Of a stretch of 64,000 bases of DNA, positions 4,495 to 44,758 are shown in pieces. Each line of letters opens with the position of its first letter. The first letter of the stretch is position 1. Location: the sequence record PV390658.1. One strand, written 5' to 3'. Source of the stretch: Escherichia phage vB_EcoM_P54. The notes under the pieces were generated by a model. It was not told the DNA's origin and did not search any database. It was given only the letters and a program-made list of their open reading frames with translations. A program made the position numbers and the translations under genes.

Positions 4495-5058
4495 TTAACC
4501 TAAAAAGTCTTTTAAATTGCGTTCTGTGATGTTTGCCGTGATTTTATCCAGCAAGTCACAAAACACGGAACTATCACCGCTATTCTGTACAATTTTCGCC
4601 ATACTTAACAAATCATCGTCAACATAGCCTAAATTGCGGTTAGTTGCATCTGGTACAAAGAAAGGTGCATACATCGCACTAAATTTCGTCGAGTGAAGGC
4701 CAATAATCCAACCTTTATCAAAGTGTCCGGTAAAGCTGGCGATATTGCTCATGTTGTCACAAGAATAATCATCCTCTAGCTCTTCCTCTGGGATATCCAT
4801 CTCAATGACAATTACGTCCTGCGTTTCCATTTGGAAAGCTGCCGTAATAAGCCCAGATTCTAAAGCGTTTTGAATGCAGCGTTCACGAATGTAAGAATCT
4901 TCCTCATCTTCCAGACATTCCGTTTTGATAATCTTGTTCATTGGGTAAACGTAGAAACAATCATCCATGTATGAGCAGTTCCAGATTCCTTCCGGCTTGT
5001 CGCCACCATTCAGCAGGTTTACAAAGTTTTTGAGGGTAGTTCCGTGATAGCATTTCAT
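4495..5058 (-). CDS. early protein (187 aa), candidate PARP/diphtheria-toxin-like ADP-ribosyltransferase
   Basis: N-terminus MKCYHGTTLKNFVNLLNGG matches the HG[ST]-x3-N-h-x2-hL NAD-binding motif of H-Y-E class transferases; Tyr cluster CFYVY and acidic stretch VIVIEMDIPEEE downstream; motif-level only. Confidence 0.3.
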   Translation of the reverse strand: MKCYHGTTLKNFVNLLNGGDKPEGIWNCSYMDDCFYVYPMNKIIKTECLEDEEDSYIRERCIQNALESGLITAAFQMETQDVIVIEMDIPEEELEDDYSCDNMSNIASFTGHFDKGWIIGLHSTKFSAMYAPFFVPDATNRNLGYVDDDLLSMAKIVQNSGDSSVFCDLLDKITANITERNLKDFLG

Positions 5059-11479: not shown

Positions 11480-11749
11480 TCACTTCCTCGTTTTAAGAAC
11501 TGCTAAGATTTCTTTAGAGTCTGGTAAGAACCATGTGTAGTGATTCTCTTTGATTTCTGGATGAGTGTCAACCTTTATTTTGCACTCTTTACCAACATGC
11601 TTAAGCTGTGCTGTGACACCTTGCATAAAGATATGACACATCACGTTATCCATAATGGTTGGTGAGAAATCAACCCGCATATAAGTTTCTTTTGGTCGTG
11701 GTAGCAGTAAGTACCCTTCTACATAGAAAGTATCTTCATTCTCTGTCAT
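11480..11749 (-). CDS. hypothetical protein (89 aa)
   Basis: ATG at 11749 overlaps the upstream stop by ATGA. Confidence 0.5.
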   Translation of the reverse strand: MTENEDTFYVEGYLLLPRPKETYMRVDFSPTIMDNVMCHIFMQGVTAQLKHVGKECKIKVDTHPEIKENHYTWFLPDSKEILAVLKTRK

Positions 11750-12015
11750 TGCTGTTTGTTTCCTAATAAAATCATATCAATAAGGTTATTAGCTTTGATT
11801 GTGCACTGGTAAAAACCATCACGATAAAACTCAAGGGCTGCTGCCACATCACTACCAGTATTACCTTTGACAGTGAATCTTGACTCTTCTTGAGTGTACT
11901 TGTCACTCTCACTTACTTGGGAGTTTTTGAATGTACTGTTCACTTTGTTCGTTGAACACCCTGACATAATTATCAGTAACACAAACATTATAAAACTCTG
12001 GCTTAGTCTTTTCAT
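11746..12015 (-). CDS. putative o-spanin (outer-membrane lipoprotein, 89 aa)
   Basis: N-terminal signal peptide ending in a Cys lipobox-like site (LIIMSGC); lies in a different frame overlapping the 3-prime end of the i-spanin-like ORF. Confidence 0.5.
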   Translation of the reverse strand: MKRLSQSFIMFVLLIIMSGCSTNKVNSTFKNSQVSESDKYTQEESRFTVKGNTGSDVAAALEFYRDGFYQCTIKANNLIDMILLGNKQQ

Positions 12016-12256
12016 ATGTTAGTACCTCTTTTGTGTGCTTATTCTTAGCAAGCACGTCTTTCAAATCATTTTTGTAATTGGTGCTGAGTGTGGCTAAACC
12101 TTCCTGATAAGCATCTTTAGCAACACTTATTAGTTTCTCATTATTTAGCTCAGCTTCAGCAACTTGGTAGTCTCTGTAAGAGTATCCTCCCCAGACACCT
12201 GCTCCAACTAAGAAAACAATTATGAAAGTAGCTTGGCAGAACTCTTTAAATGTCAT
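11909..12256 (-). CDS. putative i-spanin (115 aa)
   Basis: Single N-terminal transmembrane segment then charged helical region; AGGAG SD before ATG at 12256. Confidence 0.5.
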   Translation of the reverse strand: MTFKEFCQATFIIVFLVGAGVWGGYSYRDYQVAEAELNNEKLISVAKDAYQEGLATLSTNYKNDLKDVLAKNKHTKEVLTYEKTKPEFYNVCVTDNYVRVFNEQSEQYIQKLPSK

Positions 12257-39036: not shown

Positions 39037-39293
39037 GTAAGCCTCTTTTAAGTAACTATTAAGTTTTAATCTTTTATCTTAACGTATTCTATACGTTATA
39101 CTTTAAAGCTTTTTAAAAGCTATTAAATAATCTTTTAAGAGTTTTAAAGTATCTGTATAGTTAAACTGTTAAGTAACCTTTTAAGTAAAAACCCACTTCG
39201 CAAAGATTAACACCTTGTCAAGTACATTGTCAACTTGCTTTTTATAATTTTTTGCAGTAATGTATGAGGTTAATGATTTTAGAGGGAGTAAAA
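39037..39293. promoter_or_regulatory. divergent intergenic control region
   Basis: 257-bp AT-rich spacer between leftward and rightward units; TATAAT at 39243-39248, two TTGTCA copies at 39215 and 39227 at non-canonical spacing; AGAGGGAG SD before the polymerase ATG. Confidence 0.4.
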
Positions 39294-41993
39294 ATGGAAA
39301 ACGTAGATTTTAAAAACTTACATTTAGTTGGTGATACAGAAACTGATGGTTTACTCCTTGAGTTCACTAAGGTGCACGTAATGGCTTTCGCAGACTATAA
39401 ATCTGACGACGAAGAGCCACCTGTATGGGTCTTTACAGATGAACCTATCCTCGGTCACAAGTATACCAAGTACATTAAGGGTGGTTTGCGTGAAGGTATT
39501 GAGTTTGCGTTAAAGGCAAAACGACTTTGCATCCATAATGGTTTAGGATATGACTGGTGGGTTTTCAATCACATTGCACCTGATTTGTGGAACTTTGATA
39601 ATCCAAAGTGTAAGCCGTGGAGTAATTTCTTTCAGGATTCTCTTATCCAGTCTCGTGTTCAATGGATGGATAGACCAACTCCAAAAGGCTATAAAGGTGC
39701 TCATGGCTTGGCAGCATGGGGTGCTCGTGTTGGTGTCCGTAAACCAGAGATTGAACATTGGGGTGTGTGGAATGCAGAAATCTTCACTCGTGTTGTGGAA
39801 GATATCCGTATTAACGCCAAAACTAAACGTGCACTGGATAATGAATATCTCAAGCTGAAGAAGTGTGGCGTAGATACTTATGAAACCTACATGCGAGCTA
39901 AAGAAACATCTTTCTGGATGAGTCAACAAGCTATCAATGGTTGGAAAGCTGATAAAGAGCTTATGGAGTTCCATGTAAAGGAACTTGACAAGTTGACTAA
40001 TGAGCTTGCTTCAGAAGTTGAACCACATCTTCCTCCAACTATTAAGACCAAAGGTAAAGTCACTGGAGAAGAATTTGCAAAAGCTTGGAATGAGTATGTT
40101 GAAGCATTCGGTCATGCAGATGGACTGAAGAGAATTACTAAGTACCCTAAGACAAAGTATCGTCAGCAGGTACGTAATGGTGAGATGCAGACATATGAAA
40201 TCAAGCCATTTGGTAAACCAACTACCAAGATTTTTAACATTGAAAAGCGGAATTGCTATACACCAACCAACTCTGTAACTGGTGAAGAGTACAAGGAAGG
40301 CTTTGTAGCAATGAAGGATGCTCGTGCAATTTGCAATGAGTTGAATGCAAAGATTGGTAAGAAGTGCAAAGACTGGAAGCCAGTAAAAACAGTTAAAACT
40401 GTGAAGTACTATAACAGCCATGTTGTTAACCACTTTGAGCTTGAGTCAAGTCGCTACACAGGTTTGATTGATGCACCATATACACCAATTGAGTTCGAAG
40501 TTTCTCGTATGACTCAGGTAGCAGTTGTTAAAGACTACTTGAAATCAGTTGGTTGGATTCCAGATGACTGGAACTATAAGAAAGACTCTGATGGTCGTCC
40601 TGTTAAGGTTTGTCGCTTCAAAGACAACAAAAAGATGATTACAAAACATCCTAAGTGGGATGAGATGGTGGAACGGTGTGGTTTGAGTTATGTTGAACAC
40701 GAAGGTGTCCAGTACATTGAACATAACTGGTCTGTGAAGAAGTACACAGATTTGCTTGAGCCTTGCTTAATCCGTACTTCACCAAAACTTACTGAATCAT
40801 CTTATGATACAATTGAAGGTGAGCTTGGACAGAAGATTGCGAAATACTATACTTTGATGCACCGACGCAGAACTATTGAGAACTCAAAGGATGATGAAAA
40901 AGGTTGGTTGAACCAGATTCGTCCTGACGGTCGCCTTAGTGCTGGTGCAATGGTGTTTGGTACTTCAACTGGACGTATGACACAGTATGGTATTGTAAAC
41001 GTACCGTCTGGTGCTGCTGTCTATGGGGAACCAATGAGGGCAGTGTGGATTTGTGAAGAAGGTACTAACGTTGTCTCTGTAGACATGAACTCAGCCCAGC
41101 TAGTTCTTCTTTGTAACTTTATGGGTGACAAAGACTTCACTAAAGCGGTAACGCAAGGTAAAGAAGAGATTGAGTTTATTCGTCAAGAAGATGGACGCTA
41201 TTACTGCAAACATTTTGATGAGTACCTCAACCCAGAGATTGATAAGTACCTTCGCTATGACTCTGAGAATGACCTTTACGTTGTCTATTCAGGGACTGAT
41301 GCACACACACTGAACAGTATTTACTTTAGCTTGAATGATGAGCAGGATATCTTGACTTGTCGAGCTACTCAGGATGAGAACCTTCTCCATGAGATTAGCA
41401 AAGGTCGTAAGAAAGCTAAGAATGGTATCTATGCACTGCTGTTCGGTGCAGGTGATGAGAAGTTTGCTAAGACAATTAAGGCTGCAACTACTCAGGAAGG
41501 TGCACTGACTAAGCAGACTTACTTTATCCGTTTGCCTAAGATTAAGAAGCTGCTAGATGACTTGGAAGCTGACTACAAAGCAACTAAGAAGGCACTTGAA
41601 GAGGTGTTTGGTAAGACCGCTGCAATCTCTAAAGGGGGTTTTGTAAAGGTTGCTGGAGCTTGGTTGTGGTGTAAATCTCCACACAAACTGTTGAACTATC
41701 TTTTGATGGGTTCAGAGGCTCAGATTCAAAATGAGGCGATTAACCTTGCTTGTCGTCGTATGATTGACGAAGGTTTGATGAAGTTGAATGGTCGTCAACC
41801 AGCTATTGGTGCTCGTTTGCTCTGCGCATATCACGACGAGACGAGTTGGGAATGTCCAGAGAGTATGACGGCAGATGTGAAAGCAGTTACTGACTGGTAT
41901 TATGGGCAAGCTTCTAAAAACTTAGGTCTTAAGAAAGAAACGCTTGTTACAGGCACTGGTAAGGTTGGCAAAAGCTGGCTTGAAGTACACTAA
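39294..41993 (+). CDS. DNA polymerase, family A, with 3-prime to 5-prime exonuclease domain
   Basis: Exo I motif VGDTETDG; motif A-like VDMNSAQLVLL; motif B-like RKKAKNGIYALLFGAG; motif C YHDE; start moved to ATG at 39294. Confidence 0.85.
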   Translation: MENVDFKNLHLVGDTETDGLLLEFTKVHVMAFADYKSDDEEPPVWVFTDEPILGHKYTKYIKGGLREGIEFALKAKRLCIHNGLGYDWWVFNHIAPDLWNFDNPKCKPWSNFFQDSLIQSRVQWMDRPTPKGYKGAHGLAAWGARVGVRKPEIEHWGVWNAEIFTRVVEDIRINAKTKRALDNEYLKLKKCGVDTYETYMRAKETSFWMSQQAINGWKADKELMEFHVKELDKLTNELASEVEPHLPPTIKTKGKVTGEEFAKAWNEYVEAFGHADGLKRITKYPKTKYRQQVRNGEMQTYEIKPFGKPTTKIFNIEKRNCYTPTNSVTGEEYKEGFVAMKDARAICNELNAKIGKKCKDWKPVKTVKTVKYYNSHVVNHFELESSRYTGLIDAPYTPIEFEVSRMTQVAVVKDYLKSVGWIPDDWNYKKDSDGRPVKVCRFKDNKKMITKHPKWDEMVERCGLSYVEHEGVQYIEHNWSVKKYTDLLEPCLIRTSPKLTESSYDTIEGELGQKIAKYYTLMHRRRTIENSKDDEKGWLNQIRPDGRLSAGAMVFGTSTGRMTQYGIVNVPSGAAVYGEPMRAVWICEEGTNVVSVDMNSAQLVLLCNFMGDKDFTKAVTQGKEEIEFIRQEDGRYYCKHFDEYLNPEIDKYLRYDSENDLYVVYSGTDAHTLNSIYFSLNDEQDILTCRATQDENLLHEISKGRKKAKNGIYALLFGAGDEKFAKTIKAATTQEGALTKQTYFIRLPKIKKLLDDLEADYKATKKALEEVFGKTAAISKGGFVKVAGAWLWCKSPHKLLNYLLMGSEAQIQNEAINLACRRMIDEGLMKLNGRQPAIGARLLCAYHDETSWECPESMTADVKAVTDWYYGQASKNLGLKKETLVTGTGKVGKSWLEVH

Positions 41994-42054: not shown

Positions 42055-42273
42055 ATGACACTTTCAGAGATTGAAGTTCAGTTGCAATGTGCAGGTTATT
42101 CTCAAAAAGAGATTGAAGGGATGTTTATTGTTCTTTGCAGTAGCTGTAGGAATTTGAAGGTAAACCCTGAAGTTCTACGTAGAGTAGATATCTTTATTGC
42201 TGGAGATAAAATCGCAAAAGATAAGACAGGCTACTTAAAAGGTGAGCGTGTAAATATTGAGAGTTTACTATGA
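42055..42273 (+). CDS. small protein (72 aa), paralog of 42476..42694
   Basis: AGGAGG SD; C-terminus GDKIAKDKTGYLKGERVNIESLL. Confidence 0.55.
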   Translation: MTLSEIEVQLQCAGYSQKEIEGMFIVLCSSCRNLKVNPEVLRRVDIFIAGDKIAKDKTGYLKGERVNIESLL

Positions 42274-42479
42274 GCCACCGTGGAAGAACCCATGCAGCGA
42301 TGATGAAAGGTGCTTCAAAGGAAACTATCAAGAACCGTAAGCAGAAGTTGTTTGAGAGAATGAACAGGTTAATTGACAATTCATCTCTTTCAGGTTCTGA
42401 GAAGGTTTTCTTGAAAGGTAATCTGAAAAGCATTGCACAAGAACTTATTGATATTGAATATTGGAGACATCAAAAATGA
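42270..42479 (+). CDS. hypothetical protein (69 aa)
   Basis: ATGA overlaps at both ends. Confidence 0.5.
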   Translation: MSHRGRTHAAMMKGASKETIKNRKQKLFERMNRLIDNSSLSGSEKVFLKGNLKSIAQELIDIEYWRHQK

Positions 42480-42694
42480 CACTTGCAGACGTTATTCAGC
42501 AACTTCACGATAATTGCTACACTCCTGAGTTGATTCAAGAGATGCTTATTGTGGTGATGCCTAGTAAGTTCTTAAAAGGTTTTAATCGTGAGGCTTTAAA
42601 GGTCGCACATATCCTTATCGTTGACGGTAAGATTGCAAGAGACCGTACAGGTGTTCTTAAGGGTGAACGCATTGATATCTTGGAATTGTTATGA
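42476..42694 (+). CDS. small protein (72 aa), paralog of 42055..42273
   Basis: ORF-track start 42461 is TTG; ATG at 42476 after GGAG; C-terminus DGKIARDRTGVLKGERIDILELL. Confidence 0.55.
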   Translation: MTLADVIQQLHDNCYTPELIQEMLIVVMPSKFLKGFNREALKVAHILIVDGKIARDRTGVLKGERIDILELL

Positions 42695-42870
42695 ATAGGT
42701 TATATAGTCTCTGGGGAAGGATGGGTAAAGACTCTGATTGGAACCTACTAAAAACAAACGTAAAAAGTAATGAGATAGCGTACTACAAAATTCATTACTA
42801 CAAAACTTTCAGAGAGCTTGAGTATCGTGAACAACAGACAGGAGAAGTATTATGTGGAAATCAGTAATTG
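42691..42870 (+). CDS. small hypothetical protein (59 aa)
   Basis: Not in the ORF track; ATGA overlap with the upstream gene; 3-prime end overlaps the next SD. Confidence 0.3.
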
Positions 42871-43088
42871 TGCTTGGTGTTATTTTTCTAGCTGGCTGCA
42901 ACCCTTCTTATGAAGATAAAAATGCTTCTTATAGCCTCCCACCAGAGATGCAAGATTGCAAAGTCTATAAGTTGCATGGTGATGCCATAAGTAGAGATAT
43001 TGTTGTTGTCAGATGTCCAAACTCTCAAACAACAACATCTTATAGTTATGGAAAAAATGGTCAATCACACACTACGGTTATTGAGTGA
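42852..43088 (+). CDS. small lipoprotein (78 aa)
   Basis: Signal peptide VIVLGVIFLAGC with lipobox LAGC; strong AGGAGAAG SD. Confidence 0.55.
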   Translation: MWKSVIVLGVIFLAGCNPSYEDKNASYSLPPEMQDCKVYKLHGDAISRDIVVVRCPNSQTTTSYSYGKNGQSHTTVIE

Positions 43089-43098
43089 GGTTTTCACG

Positions 43099-43305
43099 AT
43101 GGAAGTCCTAGTAAACTATATCTATTGTTATGATGTTGTTCACTCCACTACAACCGTAGCTCAACGTAACCCAATTGTCCCACGAGAAGGTGAATTGGTT
43201 CGCATTGAGGGTTGGACTTACACTGTGGAAAGTATCATTCATAAGTTTGATGTTGCTGGTGATGTTCAAGTTATCGACGTAGAGATTGGTGGTAAGAGAA
43301 AATGA
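43099..43305 (+). CDS. hypothetical protein (about 68 aa)
   Basis: ORF-track 43000..43305 overlaps the lipoprotein gene; ATG at 43099 has GTGAGG SD. Confidence 0.4.
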   Translation: MEVLVNYIYCYDVVHSTTTVAQRNPIVPREGELVRIEGWTYTVESIIHKFDVAGDVQVIDVEIGGKRK

Positions 43306-43461: not shown

Positions 43462-43653
43462 ATGAATAAAGAAGACAAGCATAAAAATGCTGTACGGACT
43501 CCTGATGGAAAGGTTCAATCCTTCATCCTGACAGTTGGTGGAAAGCCGTTTCGTTGCCACTGCGGAGCAAACTGTTTTCATAAACCAGATAAAAATGACT
43601 TAGAGCTTTACGCATGTAATGCTTGTAATACTTGGTATCACTCAGAGGAATAA
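43462..43653 (+). CDS. small Cys-rich zinc-ribbon protein (63 aa)
   Basis: CHCGANC ... CNACN motifs; stop immediately before the ligase SD. Confidence 0.45.
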   Translation: MNKEDKHKNAVRTPDGKVQSFILTVGGKPFRCHCGANCFHKPDKNDLELYACNACNTWYHSEE

Positions 43654-43654
43654 A

Positions 43655-44758
43655 ATGACAATACTGTACAAACAAAATAAAGACGGCTCTTTTAACGTCT
43701 GGTCATGCGTTGCTGTAGGTGACAAAGTTATTACAACCTACGGTAAAGAAAATGGCAAGATGATGTTTGAAGAGTACACAGCAGAACCTAAAAACATCGG
43801 TAAAAAGAATGAGCGTAACGCTGAACAGCAAGCTCTCTTTGAAGTTGCTGCTAAGTATAAAAAGCAGGTTGACCGTAAAGGCTACGCTTACACAAAAGAG
43901 TCTGCACAGAATACTGAGAAGGTAGGTGTACAGCTTGCTCATGATGCTGCAAAGGTTAGTCATGCAAAGTATCTGAAGTTCCCTGCTGATGCTCAACCGA
44001 AACTTGATGGTGTCCGTTGTAGGATTTCAAGGCACTTGAGTATTGGCAGTGTATTTACAGCATATTCTCGTGAGAATACTGTTTACAAAATCCCTACTGA
44101 ACTAATACCTGACATTATGGCAATGTTAAGGCTCCACAAAGATGTTGATGAATTTGATGGAGAGATTTATGCTCATGGGTGGGACTTAGAAGATATCGTC
44201 TCCATGATTAAAAATGAAGACAATCCTGACAGACACTTGCTCAAGTTTTACTGGTACGATATCTGTGACAGTACTAAGACGTGGCCTGAGCGTAGAGATA
44301 TTATTGAGACTTCACCATTGAATGACTTTAGAGATGGCTGTAAAGTTGTTCCTGTTAAGTCTCGTCGTGTAAATTCTTGGGAAGAGTTTGATGAAGCCCA
44401 TGATAAGTGGGTTGAAGCTCAGTTTGAAGGTGCAATGTACCGTTCAATCTCTGAAGACTCCTTCTATGAGTGTTGTCACCGTTCATACTTCTTGATTAAG
44501 CACAAGAAGATGCACACTGAAGAGTTTAAAGTGACTGGTGTAAAGACTGATAAGCGTGGTCATGGCAAGTTCGTTGTAGAGACTCTTCCTAACGTCTTTG
44601 TAGATGTCTCATGGAAGACTACTCATGAGAAGAAACAGTATCTTGCTGAGCATCCTGAAGAGTTTATCGGGAAACCTTTAACGGTTCAGTTCCAGAAGAT
44701 GACTCGTAAGGGGTCTTTACAGTTCCCTGTTGGGCTGGTTATACGAGATTATGAATAA
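43655..44758 (+). CDS. ATP-dependent DNA ligase
   Basis: Adenylation motif I KLDGVRC (KxDGxR); size typical of T7-type ligases; start at ATG 43655 after AGAGGAA SD. Confidence 0.8.
   Translation: MTILYKQNKDGSFNVWSCVAVGDKVITTYGKENGKMMFEEYTAEPKNIGKKNERNAEQQALFEVAAKYKKQVDRKGYAYTKESAQNTEKVGVQLAHDAAKVSHAKYLKFPADAQPKLDGVRCRISRHLSIGSVFTAYSRENTVYKIPTELIPDIMAMLRLHKDVDEFDGEIYAHGWDLEDIVSMIKNEDNPDRHLLKFYWYDICDSTKTWPERRDIIETSPLNDFRDGCKVVPVKSRRVNSWEEFDEAHDKWVEAQFEGAMYRSISEDSFYECCHRSYFLIKHKKMHTEEFKVTGVKTDKRGHGKFVVETLPNVFVDVSWKTTHEKKQYLAEHPEEFIGKPLTVQFQKMTRKGSLQFPVGLVIRDYE

What the first reader, a model, noticed from the sequence alone, without database searches (positions are those of the whole stretch)
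42852..43088. Small early lipoprotein: candidate superinfection exclusion factor
A 78-aa protein with a lipoprotein signal peptide and lipobox LAGC and a strong SD. Small phage lipoproteins in other systems (T5 Llp, Cor-type proteins) inactivate the phage receptor to block superinfection and protect progeny. It is next to a partly overlapping 59-aa ORF (42691..42870).
Basis: inference. Interest (0 to 1): 0.4.

Follow-up and report, generated by a model that had tools for sequence, protein, structure and literature searches.

The report
Conserved early phage lipoprotein, function unknown
This is a real, strongly conserved gene for a tiny membrane-anchored lipoprotein of a Felix O1/wV8-like phage; it belongs to a very large uncharacterised family found in big lytic phages, is not related to the known receptor-blocking lipoproteins (T5 Llp, Cor, Rtp45), and its proposed role in blocking superinfection is plausible but untested.

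Summary
ORF 42852..43088 (+) encodes 78 aa with a lipoprotein signal peptide (MWKSVIVLGVIFLAG|C), Asn at +2 and an AGGAG Shine-Dalgarno 7 nt upstream. The neighbouring ORF is 58 aa (42691..42867), not 59.

The window is a Felixounavirus. The protein is identical to wV8 gp101, annotated 'hypothetical' in every record seen. The gene is under purifying selection (dN/dS 0.02-0.27) and keeps its place between the DNA polymerase and ligase genes across Ounavirinae.

It belongs to PHROG 902 (unknown function): 668 clusters of about 75-100-aa lipoproteins with two invariant mature-domain cysteines and the motif Y.LP.EL.DCK.Y...VVRCPNS.T.T..GK. Members occur in large virulent phages of Escherichia, Salmonella, Vibrio, Acinetobacter, Aeromonas, Erwinia and Pseudomonas. 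In the contexts examined they lie in early, replication or nucleotide-metabolism blocks, not beside receptor-binding genes, and share no partner gene.

It is not the o-spanin; the spanin pair lies at 11746..12256 (-). Sequence, profile and fold comparisons found no relation to Llp/Cor or Rtp45. Felixounaviruses use LPS, not a protein receptor.

Best reading (about 0.4): an outer-membrane-anchored periplasmic 'lytic conversion' lipoprotein acting on a conserved host envelope component, probably excluding further phage entry. This function is inferred, not shown.

The parts
42840..42844 (+). Shine-Dalgarno AGGAG, 7-nt spacer to the ATG
   Evidence: Read from the sequence.
42852..43088 (+). Lipoprotein precursor CDS, 78 aa plus stop. 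Identical to wV8 gp101 / UniProt C5H7N0. Member of PHROG 902.
   Evidence: (phrog_902, E 5e-17). dN/dS 0.02-0.27.
42852..42896 (+). Signal peptide II, aa 1-15 (MWKSVIVLGVIFLAG). Predicted LspA cleavage before C16.
   Evidence: Sequence. The lipobox Cys aligns in 148 of 149 family members. Cleavage itself is inferred.
42888..42899 (+). Lipobox L-A-G-C (aa 13-16). C16 is the predicted lipidated N-terminus of the mature protein. Asn17 at +2 gives no Lol-avoidance signal.
   Evidence: Outer-membrane sorting is inferred from the E. coli +2 rule (established knowledge, not tested).
42897..43085 (+). Mature lipoprotein, 63 aa, about 7.0 kDa (protein part), pI about 6.1. Predicted small beta-rich domain with five strands and two short helical turns.
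   Evidence: (AF2 mean pLDDT 71.7 and 67.2, same topology in both).
42957..42959 (+). Cys36, invariant in the family. Predicted disulfide partner of Cys55.
   Evidence: Invariant in 149 of 149 sequences. The disulfide is inferred from invariance plus export to the periplasm.
43011..43037 (+). Signature motif R54-C55-P56-N57-S58-Q-T60-T-T62 (family consensus VVRCPNS.T.T). C55 is invariant.
   Evidence: R 0.85, C 1.0, P 0.95, N 0.77, S 0.84, T60 0.91.
43050..43055 (+). G67-K68 turn between predicted strands 4 and 5, nearly invariant (G 0.90, K 0.95). In 25 of 149 members the mature domain has two extra Cys; in the examples read (e.g. P0016, P0017, P0041, P0099) they flank this turn as C-G-K-x-C. 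Candidate functional loop.
42691..42867 (+). Upstream 58-aa gene (phrog_2381, unknown function), overlapping the lipoprotein start by 16 nt. Not conserved as a neighbour in all Ounavirinae.
43099..43305 (+). Downstream 68-aa gene (phrog_4427, unknown function). Neighbour within Ounavirinae only.

Best explanation
The gene encodes a small secreted lipoprotein.

[quoted passage not shown] The two invariant cysteines C36 and C55 are predicted to form a disulfide in the periplasm. This would give a beta-rich domain of about 7 kDa held by a tether of only about 3 residues just under the outer membrane.

Expression: it is most likely made with the replication genes (early or middle), because it lies in the tightly packed + strand block DNA polymerase ... 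ligase ... DHFR/thymidylate synthase, with no terminator-like site between the polymerase gene and it.

Mode of action: it works alone, with no conserved partner gene. Because the same sharply conserved motifs occur in phages of many gammaproteobacterial genera, it probably binds a host envelope component that is itself conserved, not a strain-specific receptor.

Most likely benefit: 'lytic conversion' of the infected cell, meaning the envelope is altered from the periplasmic side so that further phages (its own kind or competitors) cannot complete entry. It is unlikely to mask the phage's own LPS receptor.

Shown: the ORF, its conservation, the lipoprotein signals, family membership, and non-membership of the Llp/Cor, Rtp45 and spanin families.

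Inferred: processing, location, timing, target class and function.
For: - Canonical lipoprotein signal and Shine-Dalgarno.
- Lipobox Cys aligned in 148 of 149 family members; two invariant Cys 16-19 residues apart in 143 of 149 (15-22 overall).
- Purifying selection, stronger on the mature part than on the signal peptide.
- Syntenic in Felixounavirus and Mooglevirus between the DNA polymerase and ligase genes.
- By organism counts, present in nearly all E. coli, Shigella and Citrobacter Ounavirinae and about 70% of the Salmonella ones.
- 668 homologous clusters, found in large virulent phages of many genera. In the contexts examined they sit in early, replication or nucleotide-metabolism blocks.
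- No shared neighbour across lineages except DHFR and thymidylate synthase.
- No + strand terminator-like site between 39264 and 43548.
- The characterised small non-spanin lipoproteins of virulent coliphages read about here (Llp, Cor of T1, Rtp45) are exclusion factors acting on the periplasmic face of outer-membrane proteins (PMC9586334, PMC12685063, PMC11990801).
- In the T5-like Vibrio phage JSF12 the family member is the only small lipoprotein in the first 100 kb, and there is no Llp-like gene at the canonical locus. The organism counts leave little room for T5-like coliphages, which carry Llp, among the hits, but this was not checked directly. That would be a weakly complementary distribution.
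Against: - No member of the family has been tested.
- The gene is not adjacent to receptor-binding genes, unlike every characterised exclusion lipoprotein.
- The phage's receptor is LPS (PMC8594841).
- 22 of 148 family members have Asp at +2, including the copy in the E. coli jumbo phage fEgEco12. In E. coli this would favour inner-membrane retention, so an outer-membrane target may not hold for the whole family.
- High motif conservation across host genera is unlike the fast-diverging Llp/Cor proteins (18-25% identity; bioRxiv 10.64898/2026.03.26.714494). It fits a housekeeping envelope target equally well.
- The AF2 models are only moderately confident (pLDDT 67-72).
- Promoter scans are uninformative (19 sites found versus 18.6 expected).
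- Timing is inferred from gene neighbourhood only.
Confidence: 0.4

Rival explanations
1. Llp/Cor-type blocker of the phage's own receptor. The lipoprotein would bind the receptor from the periplasmic side and switch it off, protecting progeny from adsorbing to debris.
For: Same size and same signal-peptide length as T5 Llp. A disulfide-containing beta-rich small domain. Early-type location. One jumbo-phage homologue is labelled 'lytic conversion lipoprotein'. Some family members give weak phrog_1119 (Cor/Llp) hits, E 0.002-0.008.
Against: - Those weak hits disappear when signal peptides are removed (hhalign probability 0.2% versus Llp and versus T1 Cor), whereas the Llp-versus-Cor control gives E 4e-4.
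- No PDB sequence or profile hit to 7QJF/8A60 or 9RPS.
- No fold hit.
- Different cysteine architecture.
- Not next to a receptor-binding gene.
- Felixounaviruses depend on LPS, not a protein receptor (PMC8594841).
- Fibre tips vary widely among felixounaviruses (PMC12609058), while this protein's mature domain is nearly constant.
Confidence: 0.1
2. Envelope-homeostasis or lysis-timing factor. The lipoprotein would bind a conserved periplasmic or outer-membrane machine or enzyme (for example a lytic transglycosylase or other peptidoglycan hydrolase, Tol-Pal, Lpt, Bam, or an incoming tail lysozyme as T4 Spackle does). This would keep the infected cell intact until programmed lysis, or prevent lysis from without.
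For: - Motif conservation across phages of distant hosts suggests a conserved target.
- The family is concentrated in large virulent phages, mostly myoviruses with long latent periods.
- The +2 residue is heterogeneous, which argues that the target need not be in the outer membrane.
- There is no linkage to receptor-binding genes.
Against: - No similarity to known lysozyme inhibitors or to Spackle by Pfam, NCBIfam or PDB searches.
- Not in the lysis cassette.
- Absent from about a third of related Ounavirinae records, so it is dispensable.
Confidence: 0.2
3. Counter-defence. The lipoprotein would neutralise an envelope-located host or prophage exclusion or abortive-infection system.
For: An accessory-type small early gene sitting among mosaic tiny ORFs. 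It acts alone.
Against: No hit in PADLOC or to any known anti-defence family. Conservation across many host genera is unusual for a specific anti-defence protein. There is no evidence of any kind for a target.
Confidence: 0.08
4. A second o-spanin or other lysis component.
For: It is a small outer-membrane lipoprotein. It gives a very weak hit to a spanin PHROG (phrog_6073, E 0.28), limited to residues 3-21.
Against: - A complete spanin pair exists elsewhere: the i-spanin at 11909..12256 (-) (phrog_1152, E 9e-42) with an overlapping lipoprotein ORF at 11746..12015 (-).
- This gene is 31 kb away on the other strand among replication genes.
- It has no partner i-spanin.
- It is predicted to be a folded beta domain with an intramolecular Cys pair, not a proline-rich extended chain.
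Confidence: 0.02
5. Chance ORF, not a gene.
For: None beyond its small size.
Against: 668 homologous clusters, dN/dS well below 1, and a good Shine-Dalgarno.
Confidence: 0.01

Closest known systems
PHROG 902 (phage protein family, unknown function)
   Same: Direct HMM match for the window protein (E 5e-17) and for five diverse family representatives scanned (E 1e-10 to 1e-15). This is the family the protein actually belongs to.
   Different: The family carries no function, no structure and no literature. The description given here (lipobox, two invariant Cys, VVRCPNS.T.T..GK motif, distribution) appears to be new annotation.
T5 Llp and Cor of T1/phi80/N15/HK022 (PHROG 1119), which inactivate FhuA
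   Same: A small (about 60-aa mature) outer-membrane lipoprotein of a virulent phage. A 15-aa signal peptide. Beta-rich with one disulfide. An early-type gene. It may work in a similar way.
   Different: - No mature-domain sequence or profile similarity.
- No fold match.
- The disulfide closes a central hairpin (mature C21-C40) instead of clamping the termini (C11-C58).
- Not adjacent to the receptor-binding gene (compare).
- The host receptor here is LPS.
Rtp45 and the Oekolampad exclusion lipoprotein (bind LptDE; PDB 9RPS)
   Same: A lipoprotein of about 6-7 kDa acting at the periplasmic outer-membrane interface. This shows that such proteins can target an essential, conserved machine.
   Different: No sequence hit to 9RPS in PDB profile searches. 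Those genes sit next to the receptor-binding gene of small siphophages (PMC12685063, PMC11990801).
o-spanins (Rz1-like)
   Same: A small phage outer-membrane lipoprotein.
   Different: The window has its own spanin pair at 11746..12256 (-). This gene has no i-spanin partner and is not in the lysis region.
T4 Spackle (Sp) and Imm
   Same: Early, envelope-located exclusion factors of a virulent myovirus that act after adsorption (cited in bioRxiv 10.64898/2026.03.26.714494). This shows that an LPS- or porin-binding myovirus can exclude at the penetration step without touching the receptor.
   Different: No sequence or fold similarity was found. That these proteins are not lipoproteins is from my own knowledge.
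Plasmid entry-exclusion lipoproteins TrbK and EexN
   Same: Tiny lipoproteins that exclude incoming DNA.
   Different: Only signal-peptide-level NCBIfam hits, below the curated cut-offs (E 0.011-0.09).

Membership tests
Bacterial-type lipoprotein (signal peptidase II substrate) | Positively charged n-region, hydrophobic h-region, and lipobox [LVI][ASTVI][GAS]C within about 15-35 residues of the start | tested here: met
   MWK / SVIVLGVIF / LAGC. The lipobox Cys is conserved in 148 of 149 relatives.
Bacterial-type lipoprotein (signal peptidase II substrate) | Actual lipidation and LspA cleavage | not testable with these tools
   Needs globomycin or palmitate-labelling experiments.
PHROG 902 | Significant match to the family HMM over most of its length | tested here: met
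   E 5e-17, residues 1-76 against profile positions 8-87 of 118.
Llp/Cor superinfection-exclusion lipoproteins (PHROG 1119) | Sequence or profile similarity of the mature domain | tested here: not met
   - The window protein has no phrog_1119 hit at E<=1.
- hhalign of the family against Llp aligns only 19 signal-peptide columns.
- With signal peptides trimmed, probability is 0.2% versus Llp and versus T1 Cor, while the Llp-versus-Cor control gives E 4e-4.
Llp/Cor superinfection-exclusion lipoproteins (PHROG 1119) | Disulfide linking the N-terminal region to the C-terminus (Llp C11-C58) | tested here: not met
   The invariant Cys are at mature positions 21 and 40, 16-19 residues apart in 143 of 149 family members (15-22 overall). 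Llp data from PMC9586334.
Llp/Cor superinfection-exclusion lipoproteins (PHROG 1119) | Fold similar to Llp (PDB 7QJF, 8A60) | tested here: inconclusive
Llp/Cor superinfection-exclusion lipoproteins (PHROG 1119) | Gene adjacent to the receptor-binding or tail-tip gene | tested here: not met
   Here the gene lies between the DNA polymerase and ligase genes. T5 llp abuts oad. T1 cor follows the tail genes.
Llp/Cor superinfection-exclusion lipoproteins (PHROG 1119) | Inactivates the phage's outer-membrane protein receptor | not testable with these tools
   Felixounaviruses are reported to use LPS, not a protein receptor (PMC8594841).
Rtp45-type LptDE-binding exclusion lipoproteins | Sequence similarity to Rtp45 (PDB 9RPS), and a locus next to the receptor-binding gene | tested here: not met
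   No PDB hit at E<=10 other than signal-peptide matches. Locus as above.
o-spanin (Rz1-like) | Gene embedded in, overlapping or adjacent to an i-spanin gene in the lysis region | tested here: not met
   The spanin pair is at 11746..12256 (-). No i-spanin lies near 42.8 kb.
Pfam PF16225 (recalled from memory as DUF4884) | Match to the Pfam HMM above the gathering threshold | tested here: not met
   Precomputed tables list PF16225 for the 11 full-length close homologues. Direct hmmscan of 19 family members did not return it at the E-value limits used (1 or 10).

The most novel reading that the evidence does not exclude
PHROG 902 may be a receptor-independent 'envelope lock'. In this reading it is a family of phage lipoproteins that bind an essential, conserved outer-membrane or periplasmic machine of Gammaproteobacteria (for example LptDE, Bam, Lol, Tol-Pal, or the plug/TonB-box region of TonB-dependent transporters) through the invariant RCPNS.T.T and G-K loops. 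Many unrelated large lytic phages would then share a common way of excluding competitors or stabilising the infected envelope, and the binding site would be a new inhibitory epitope on an essential envelope target.
Probability: 0.15. Interest if true: 0.7.

Novelty: new variant of a known kind. Interest (0 to 1): 0.4.

Why it matters
If it excludes phages, it would be the first exclusion factor described for the Felix O1 group, which is widely used in Salmonella and E. coli typing, biocontrol and therapy cocktails. It would also be the first lipoprotein exclusion family that is not tied to a protein receptor or to the receptor-binding gene locus.

That bears on cocktail design, because co-infecting phages could be shut out. 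It also bears on the open question, raised in the BASEL papers, of how virulent phages that use glycans deal with superinfection and loss of progeny to debris.

The family is large (668 clusters at 50% identity) and sharply conserved across host genera. Identifying its target could reveal a conserved, druggable site on the Gram-negative envelope. If it proves to be an envelope-maintenance factor instead, it still annotates a gene present in hundreds of deposited genomes as 'hypothetical'.

Tried and rejected
- Pfam, NCBIfam and PADLOC scans: nothing beyond signal-peptide-level or sub-threshold hits.
- PDB sequence and profile searches with one sequence, 9 sequences and 149 sequences: no relative.
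- The search for related loci with the 149-sequence alignment failed because the alignment was too diverse. It was replaced by a degenerate VVRCPNSxTTT DNA pattern. That pattern found 23 viral contigs, mostly 81-90 kb and so the size of Felixounavirus genomes, and one bacterial contig. The pattern is too strict to measure the family's true spread.
- Search for a conserved partner gene across lineages: none.
- Search for paralogues in the window: none.
- Promoter and terminator scan: counts equal the shuffled expectation, so uninformative.
- Literature searches for Felixounavirus plus lipoprotein, 'lytic conversion lipoprotein', and Felix O1 plus superinfection exclusion: no paper deals with this gene.
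- The 'lytic conversion lipoprotein' label in phage fEgEco12 has no stated basis in the record. The likeliest source is a signal-peptide-driven weak match to PHROG 1119 of the kind seen for other family members; fEgEco12's own protein was not scanned. The label was rejected as evidence of homology.
- Tried to check whether the 'DUF4884' protein of T1-like phage Henu8 belongs to this family, using the relative pSf-1. pSf-1 has no member, so this stays unresolved.
- The o-spanin idea was rejected.

Full report
**What the window is.** The region around the finding is 91-97% identical at the DNA level to many Felixounavirus genomes (wV8, the O157 typing phages, SapYZU01, vB_EcoM_Shy and others). 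The finding lies in a + strand block that begins with the family-A DNA polymerase gene (39264..41993). The block runs through a string of tiny, tightly packed or overlapping ORFs to the DNA ligase gene (43619..44758), then on to DHFR and thymidylate synthase.

**Observation check.** ORF 42852..43088 encodes 78 aa, MWKSVIVLGVIFLAGCNPSY....
- The n-region carries one Lys, the h-region is about nine hydrophobic residues, and the lipobox is L-A-G-C with the Cys codon at 42897..42899.
- AGGAG lies at 42840..42844, 7 nt before the ATG.
- The signal peptide is 15 aa, the same length as that of T5 Llp.
- The upstream ORF is 58 aa and ends at 42867 including its stop, overlapping by 16 nt.
- My own six-frame scan for lipoprotein signals found five candidates in the 64 kb. 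Two lie in conserved genes: this one and an 89-aa ORF at 11746..12015 (-).

**It is a real gene.**
- The protein is 100% identical to wV8 gp101 / UniProt C5H7N0. Every named member of its cluster read is called 'hypothetical' or 'uncharacterized'.
- Close homologues keep K3, L13, G15, C16 and almost the whole mature domain, while the h-region varies conservatively.
- Pairwise Nei-Gojobori dN/dS against Shy, Ro111lw, UAB_Phi87, Sf14 and Sf15 is 0.02-0.27. Where dS is not saturated, it is mostly lower for the mature part than for the whole gene.
- The gene keeps its position between the polymerase and ligase genes in Felixounavirus and Mooglevirus, while several flanking mini-ORFs are swapped. 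The Felix O1 orthologue is FelixO1p170 (note).
- tblastn finds it at 60% identity or more in 196 phage records, against 302 records with the polymerase at 60% or more. By organism name it is almost universal in E. coli, Shigella and Citrobacter Ounavirinae, present in about 70% of the Salmonella ones, and rare in the Erwinia ones.
- Two metagenomic variants and one unverified GenBank record carry frameshifted copies.
- It therefore behaves as a widespread but dispensable accessory gene.

**The family.**
- PHROG 902 (unknown function) matches at E 5e-17.
- An exhaustive HMMER search with a 9-sequence profile found 668 cluster representatives at E<=1e-3 and 115 at E<=1e-10. Nearly all of the 150 best listed are 60-140 aa.
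- In a 149-sequence alignment the lipobox Cys aligns in 148, and two further Cys are invariant, 16-19 residues apart in 143 of 149.
- P30, P56, T60 and K68 are present in more than 90%. The consensus reads Y.LP.EL.DCK.Y.L...VVRCPNS.T.T..GK.
- 25 of 149 have two extra Cys; in the examples read they bracket the G-K turn as C-G-K-x-C.
- The +2 residue is heterogeneous: N 23, D 22, S 22, E 20, T 19, G 14, A 12.
- Members occur in Vequintavirinae (4MG), Saclayvirus (Acinetobacter), Vibrio Demerecviridae (JSF12) and 114-kb V. crassostreae phages. They also occur in jumbo phages (121Q, fEgEco12, Erwinia pEa_SNUABM_12), a 166-kb Pseudomonas phage, the Aeromonas phages Aeh1 and phiAS5, Yersinia fHe-Yen9-03 and Acinetobacter ME3.
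- In each context examined the gene sits among small early-type ORFs or replication and nucleotide-metabolism genes, not beside a receptor-binding gene.
- No neighbour is shared between lineages apart from DHFR and thymidylate synthase.
- The window has a single copy.
- A strict back-translated motif found one genuine chromosomal copy, in Hylemonella gracilis, among 185,579 species genomes.

**Structure.** Two AF2 runs, one on the full precursor and one on the mature protein only, give the same topology at moderate confidence (mean pLDDT 71.7 and 67.2). A strand starts three residues after the lipidated Cys, followed by two short helical turns and then four more strands. C36 precedes strand 2 and C55 follows strand 3, so a C36-C55 bond would close that hairpin. 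G67-K68 form the turn between strands 4 and 5. The disulfide is an inference from invariance plus export to the periplasm.

**What it is not.**
1. *Not the o-spanin.* The i-spanin is at 11909..12256 (-) (phrog_1152, E 9e-42). It is overlapped out of frame by a lipoprotein ORF at 11746..12015 (-) that hits phrog_4180 and, weakly, an Rz-like PHROG.
2. *Not an Llp/Cor homologue.*
   - T5 Llp maps to PHROG 1119; the window protein does not.
   - hhalign of the family against Llp aligns only 19 signal-peptide columns.
   - After trimming signal peptides, the probability is 0.2% against both Llp and T1 Cor, whereas Llp versus Cor still gives E 4e-4.
   - Llp's disulfide links C11 to C58 (PMC9586334), a different architecture.
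   - The weak PHROG 1119 hits of some relatives (E 0.002-0.008) are therefore signal-peptide driven. A match of this kind is the likeliest source of the 'lytic conversion lipoprotein' label in fEgEco12, though that protein was not itself scanned.
3. *No hit to any solved structure by sequence.* This includes the entries holding Llp (7QJF, 8A60) and Rtp45 (9RPS).
5. *No Pfam, NCBIfam or PADLOC family*. A precomputed PF16225 tag on the close homologues could not be reproduced.

**Biological frame from the literature.**
- Their fibre tips are highly variable (PMC12609058).
- The known exclusion lipoproteins of virulent coliphages bind the periplasmic face of an outer-membrane protein receptor and are encoded at the receptor-binding locus. 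These are Llp on FhuA, Cor, and Rtp45 on LptDE (PMC9586334, PMC12685063, PMC11990801).
- The BASEL authors note that glycan-targeting virulent phages show no recognisable receptor-inactivation strategy (PMC11990801).

**Most likely mechanism.** I commit to the following at about 0.4.
- It is an early or middle, Lol-sorted outer-membrane lipoprotein (Asn at +2) whose compact disulfide-stapled domain sits just under the outer membrane.
- It binds, on its own, a host envelope component that is conserved across Gammaproteobacteria.
- The benefit is 'lytic conversion': blocking completion of entry by further phages. It does not mask the phage's own LPS receptor.
- In favour: the precedent that the characterised small non-spanin lipoproteins of virulent coliphages discussed here are exclusion factors; the short tether; the early-type context; and the weakly complementary distribution with Llp among T5-like phages. 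Vibrio JSF12 has this family and no Llp-like gene in its first 100 kb. The organism counts leave little room for T5-like coliphages, which carry Llp, among the hits, though this was not checked directly.
- Against: no linkage to receptor-binding genes; unusually strong conservation across hosts; and Asp at +2 in 15% of members, including an E. coli jumbo phage. These fit a periplasmic housekeeping target, the envelope-stability or lysis-timing rival (about 0.2), almost as well.
- The strict Llp-like 'own receptor' reading gets about 0.1, counter-defence about 0.08, and spanin or artefact 0.03 or less. The remainder is unassigned.

**Novelty and interest.** The gene has been in databases since wV8 was sequenced, always as 'hypothetical'. 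The family is catalogued only as an unknown-function PHROG. If it works as an exclusion factor, it is a new, structurally unrelated variant of the known kind 'phage envelope lipoprotein that shuts the door'. It would be uncoupled from receptor-binding genes and shared by many large lytic phages. That is moderately interesting (0.4): a good, cheap experimental target, but nothing here is surprising yet, and the function rests on analogy.

**Limits.**
- No multimer prediction or wet-lab test was possible.
- The AF2 models are of moderate confidence, so 'no fold match' is weak evidence.
- Expression timing is inferred from neighbourhood.
- Presence and absence counts rest on organism names in BLAST summaries.

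Noticed in passing
window 11746..12256 (-): Spanin pair. The i-spanin is at 11909..12256 (115 aa, phrog_1152, E 9e-42). An out-of-frame overlapping lipoprotein ORF lies at 11746..12015 (89 aa, MKRLSQSFIMFVLLIIMSGC|STNK; phrog_4180 E 9e-51, Rz-like phrog_456 E 6e-5). The UAB_Phi87 paper (PMC4837284) lists only the lysin as a clear lysis gene in Felix O1-like phages.
   Followed up: partly
window 42055..42273 and 42461..42694 (+): Two paralogous small genes (72 and 77 aa), both phrog_4230 (E 2e-35 and 8e-42), separated by a phrog_5180 gene at 42270..42479. This is a local duplication of an unknown-function gene just downstream of the DNA polymerase gene.
   Followed up: no
L002 5968..6248 (Salmonella phage GE_vB_B3); proteins P0012 and P0013: Frameshifted copies of the lipoprotein gene occur in an UNVERIFIED GenBank record and in two metagenome contigs (64-aa truncated products). 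They are either sequencing errors or natural loss of a dispensable gene.
   Followed up: no
L013 4568..4846 (Hylemonella gracilis ATCC 19624, NZ_AEGR01000062): A genuine 92-aa family member in a betaproteobacterial chromosome contig. Nearby are a small ORF with a helix-turn-helix-like sequence, a second ORF with a lipoprotein-type signal, and a 488-aa ORF with an N-terminal hydrophobic signal-like segment; none of these was scanned against any library. It was the only bacterial hit of the strict VVRCPNSxTTT pattern among 185,579 species genomes.
   Followed up: partly
family alignment A2 (e.g. P0016, P0017, P0041, P0099): 25 of the 149 aligned members have two extra cysteines in the mature domain. 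In the four examples named they bracket the nearly invariant Gly-Lys turn (C-G-K-x-C), which points to that loop as a functional epitope.
   Followed up: partly
L003 3989..4240 and 4602..4877 (Escherichia phage fEgEco12): Two genes are annotated 'lytic conversion lipoprotein'. Only the first (g526) belongs to this family. The second (g528) is phrog_31263 and unrelated. The label therefore looks like a loose call, not evidence of Llp homology.
   Followed up: yes
L005 3744..3989 (Escherichia phage 4MG gp112): Directly upstream of the 4MG family member is another small protein annotated 'Rz-like spanin' (phrog_6073, E 2e-22). It lies far from any obvious lysis cassette among early genes and may be a second non-spanin envelope lipoprotein.
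   Followed up: no
L038/L039 (Vibrio phage JSF12, 1..100000): In this T5-like Vibrio phage the family member gp028 is the only small lipoprotein. No Llp-like gene lies beside the putative receptor-binding/terminase locus. A 187-aa lipoprotein (gp079, annotated 'virion structural protein') is the only other candidate.
   Followed up: partly
Precomputed tables attach Pfam PF16225 to all full-length close homologues, but direct hmmscan does not return it for any of 19 family members. A T1-like phage (Henu8, PMC12210894) has an 86-aa 'DUF4884 domain-containing protein'. Whether that protein is related could not be checked.
   Followed up: partly
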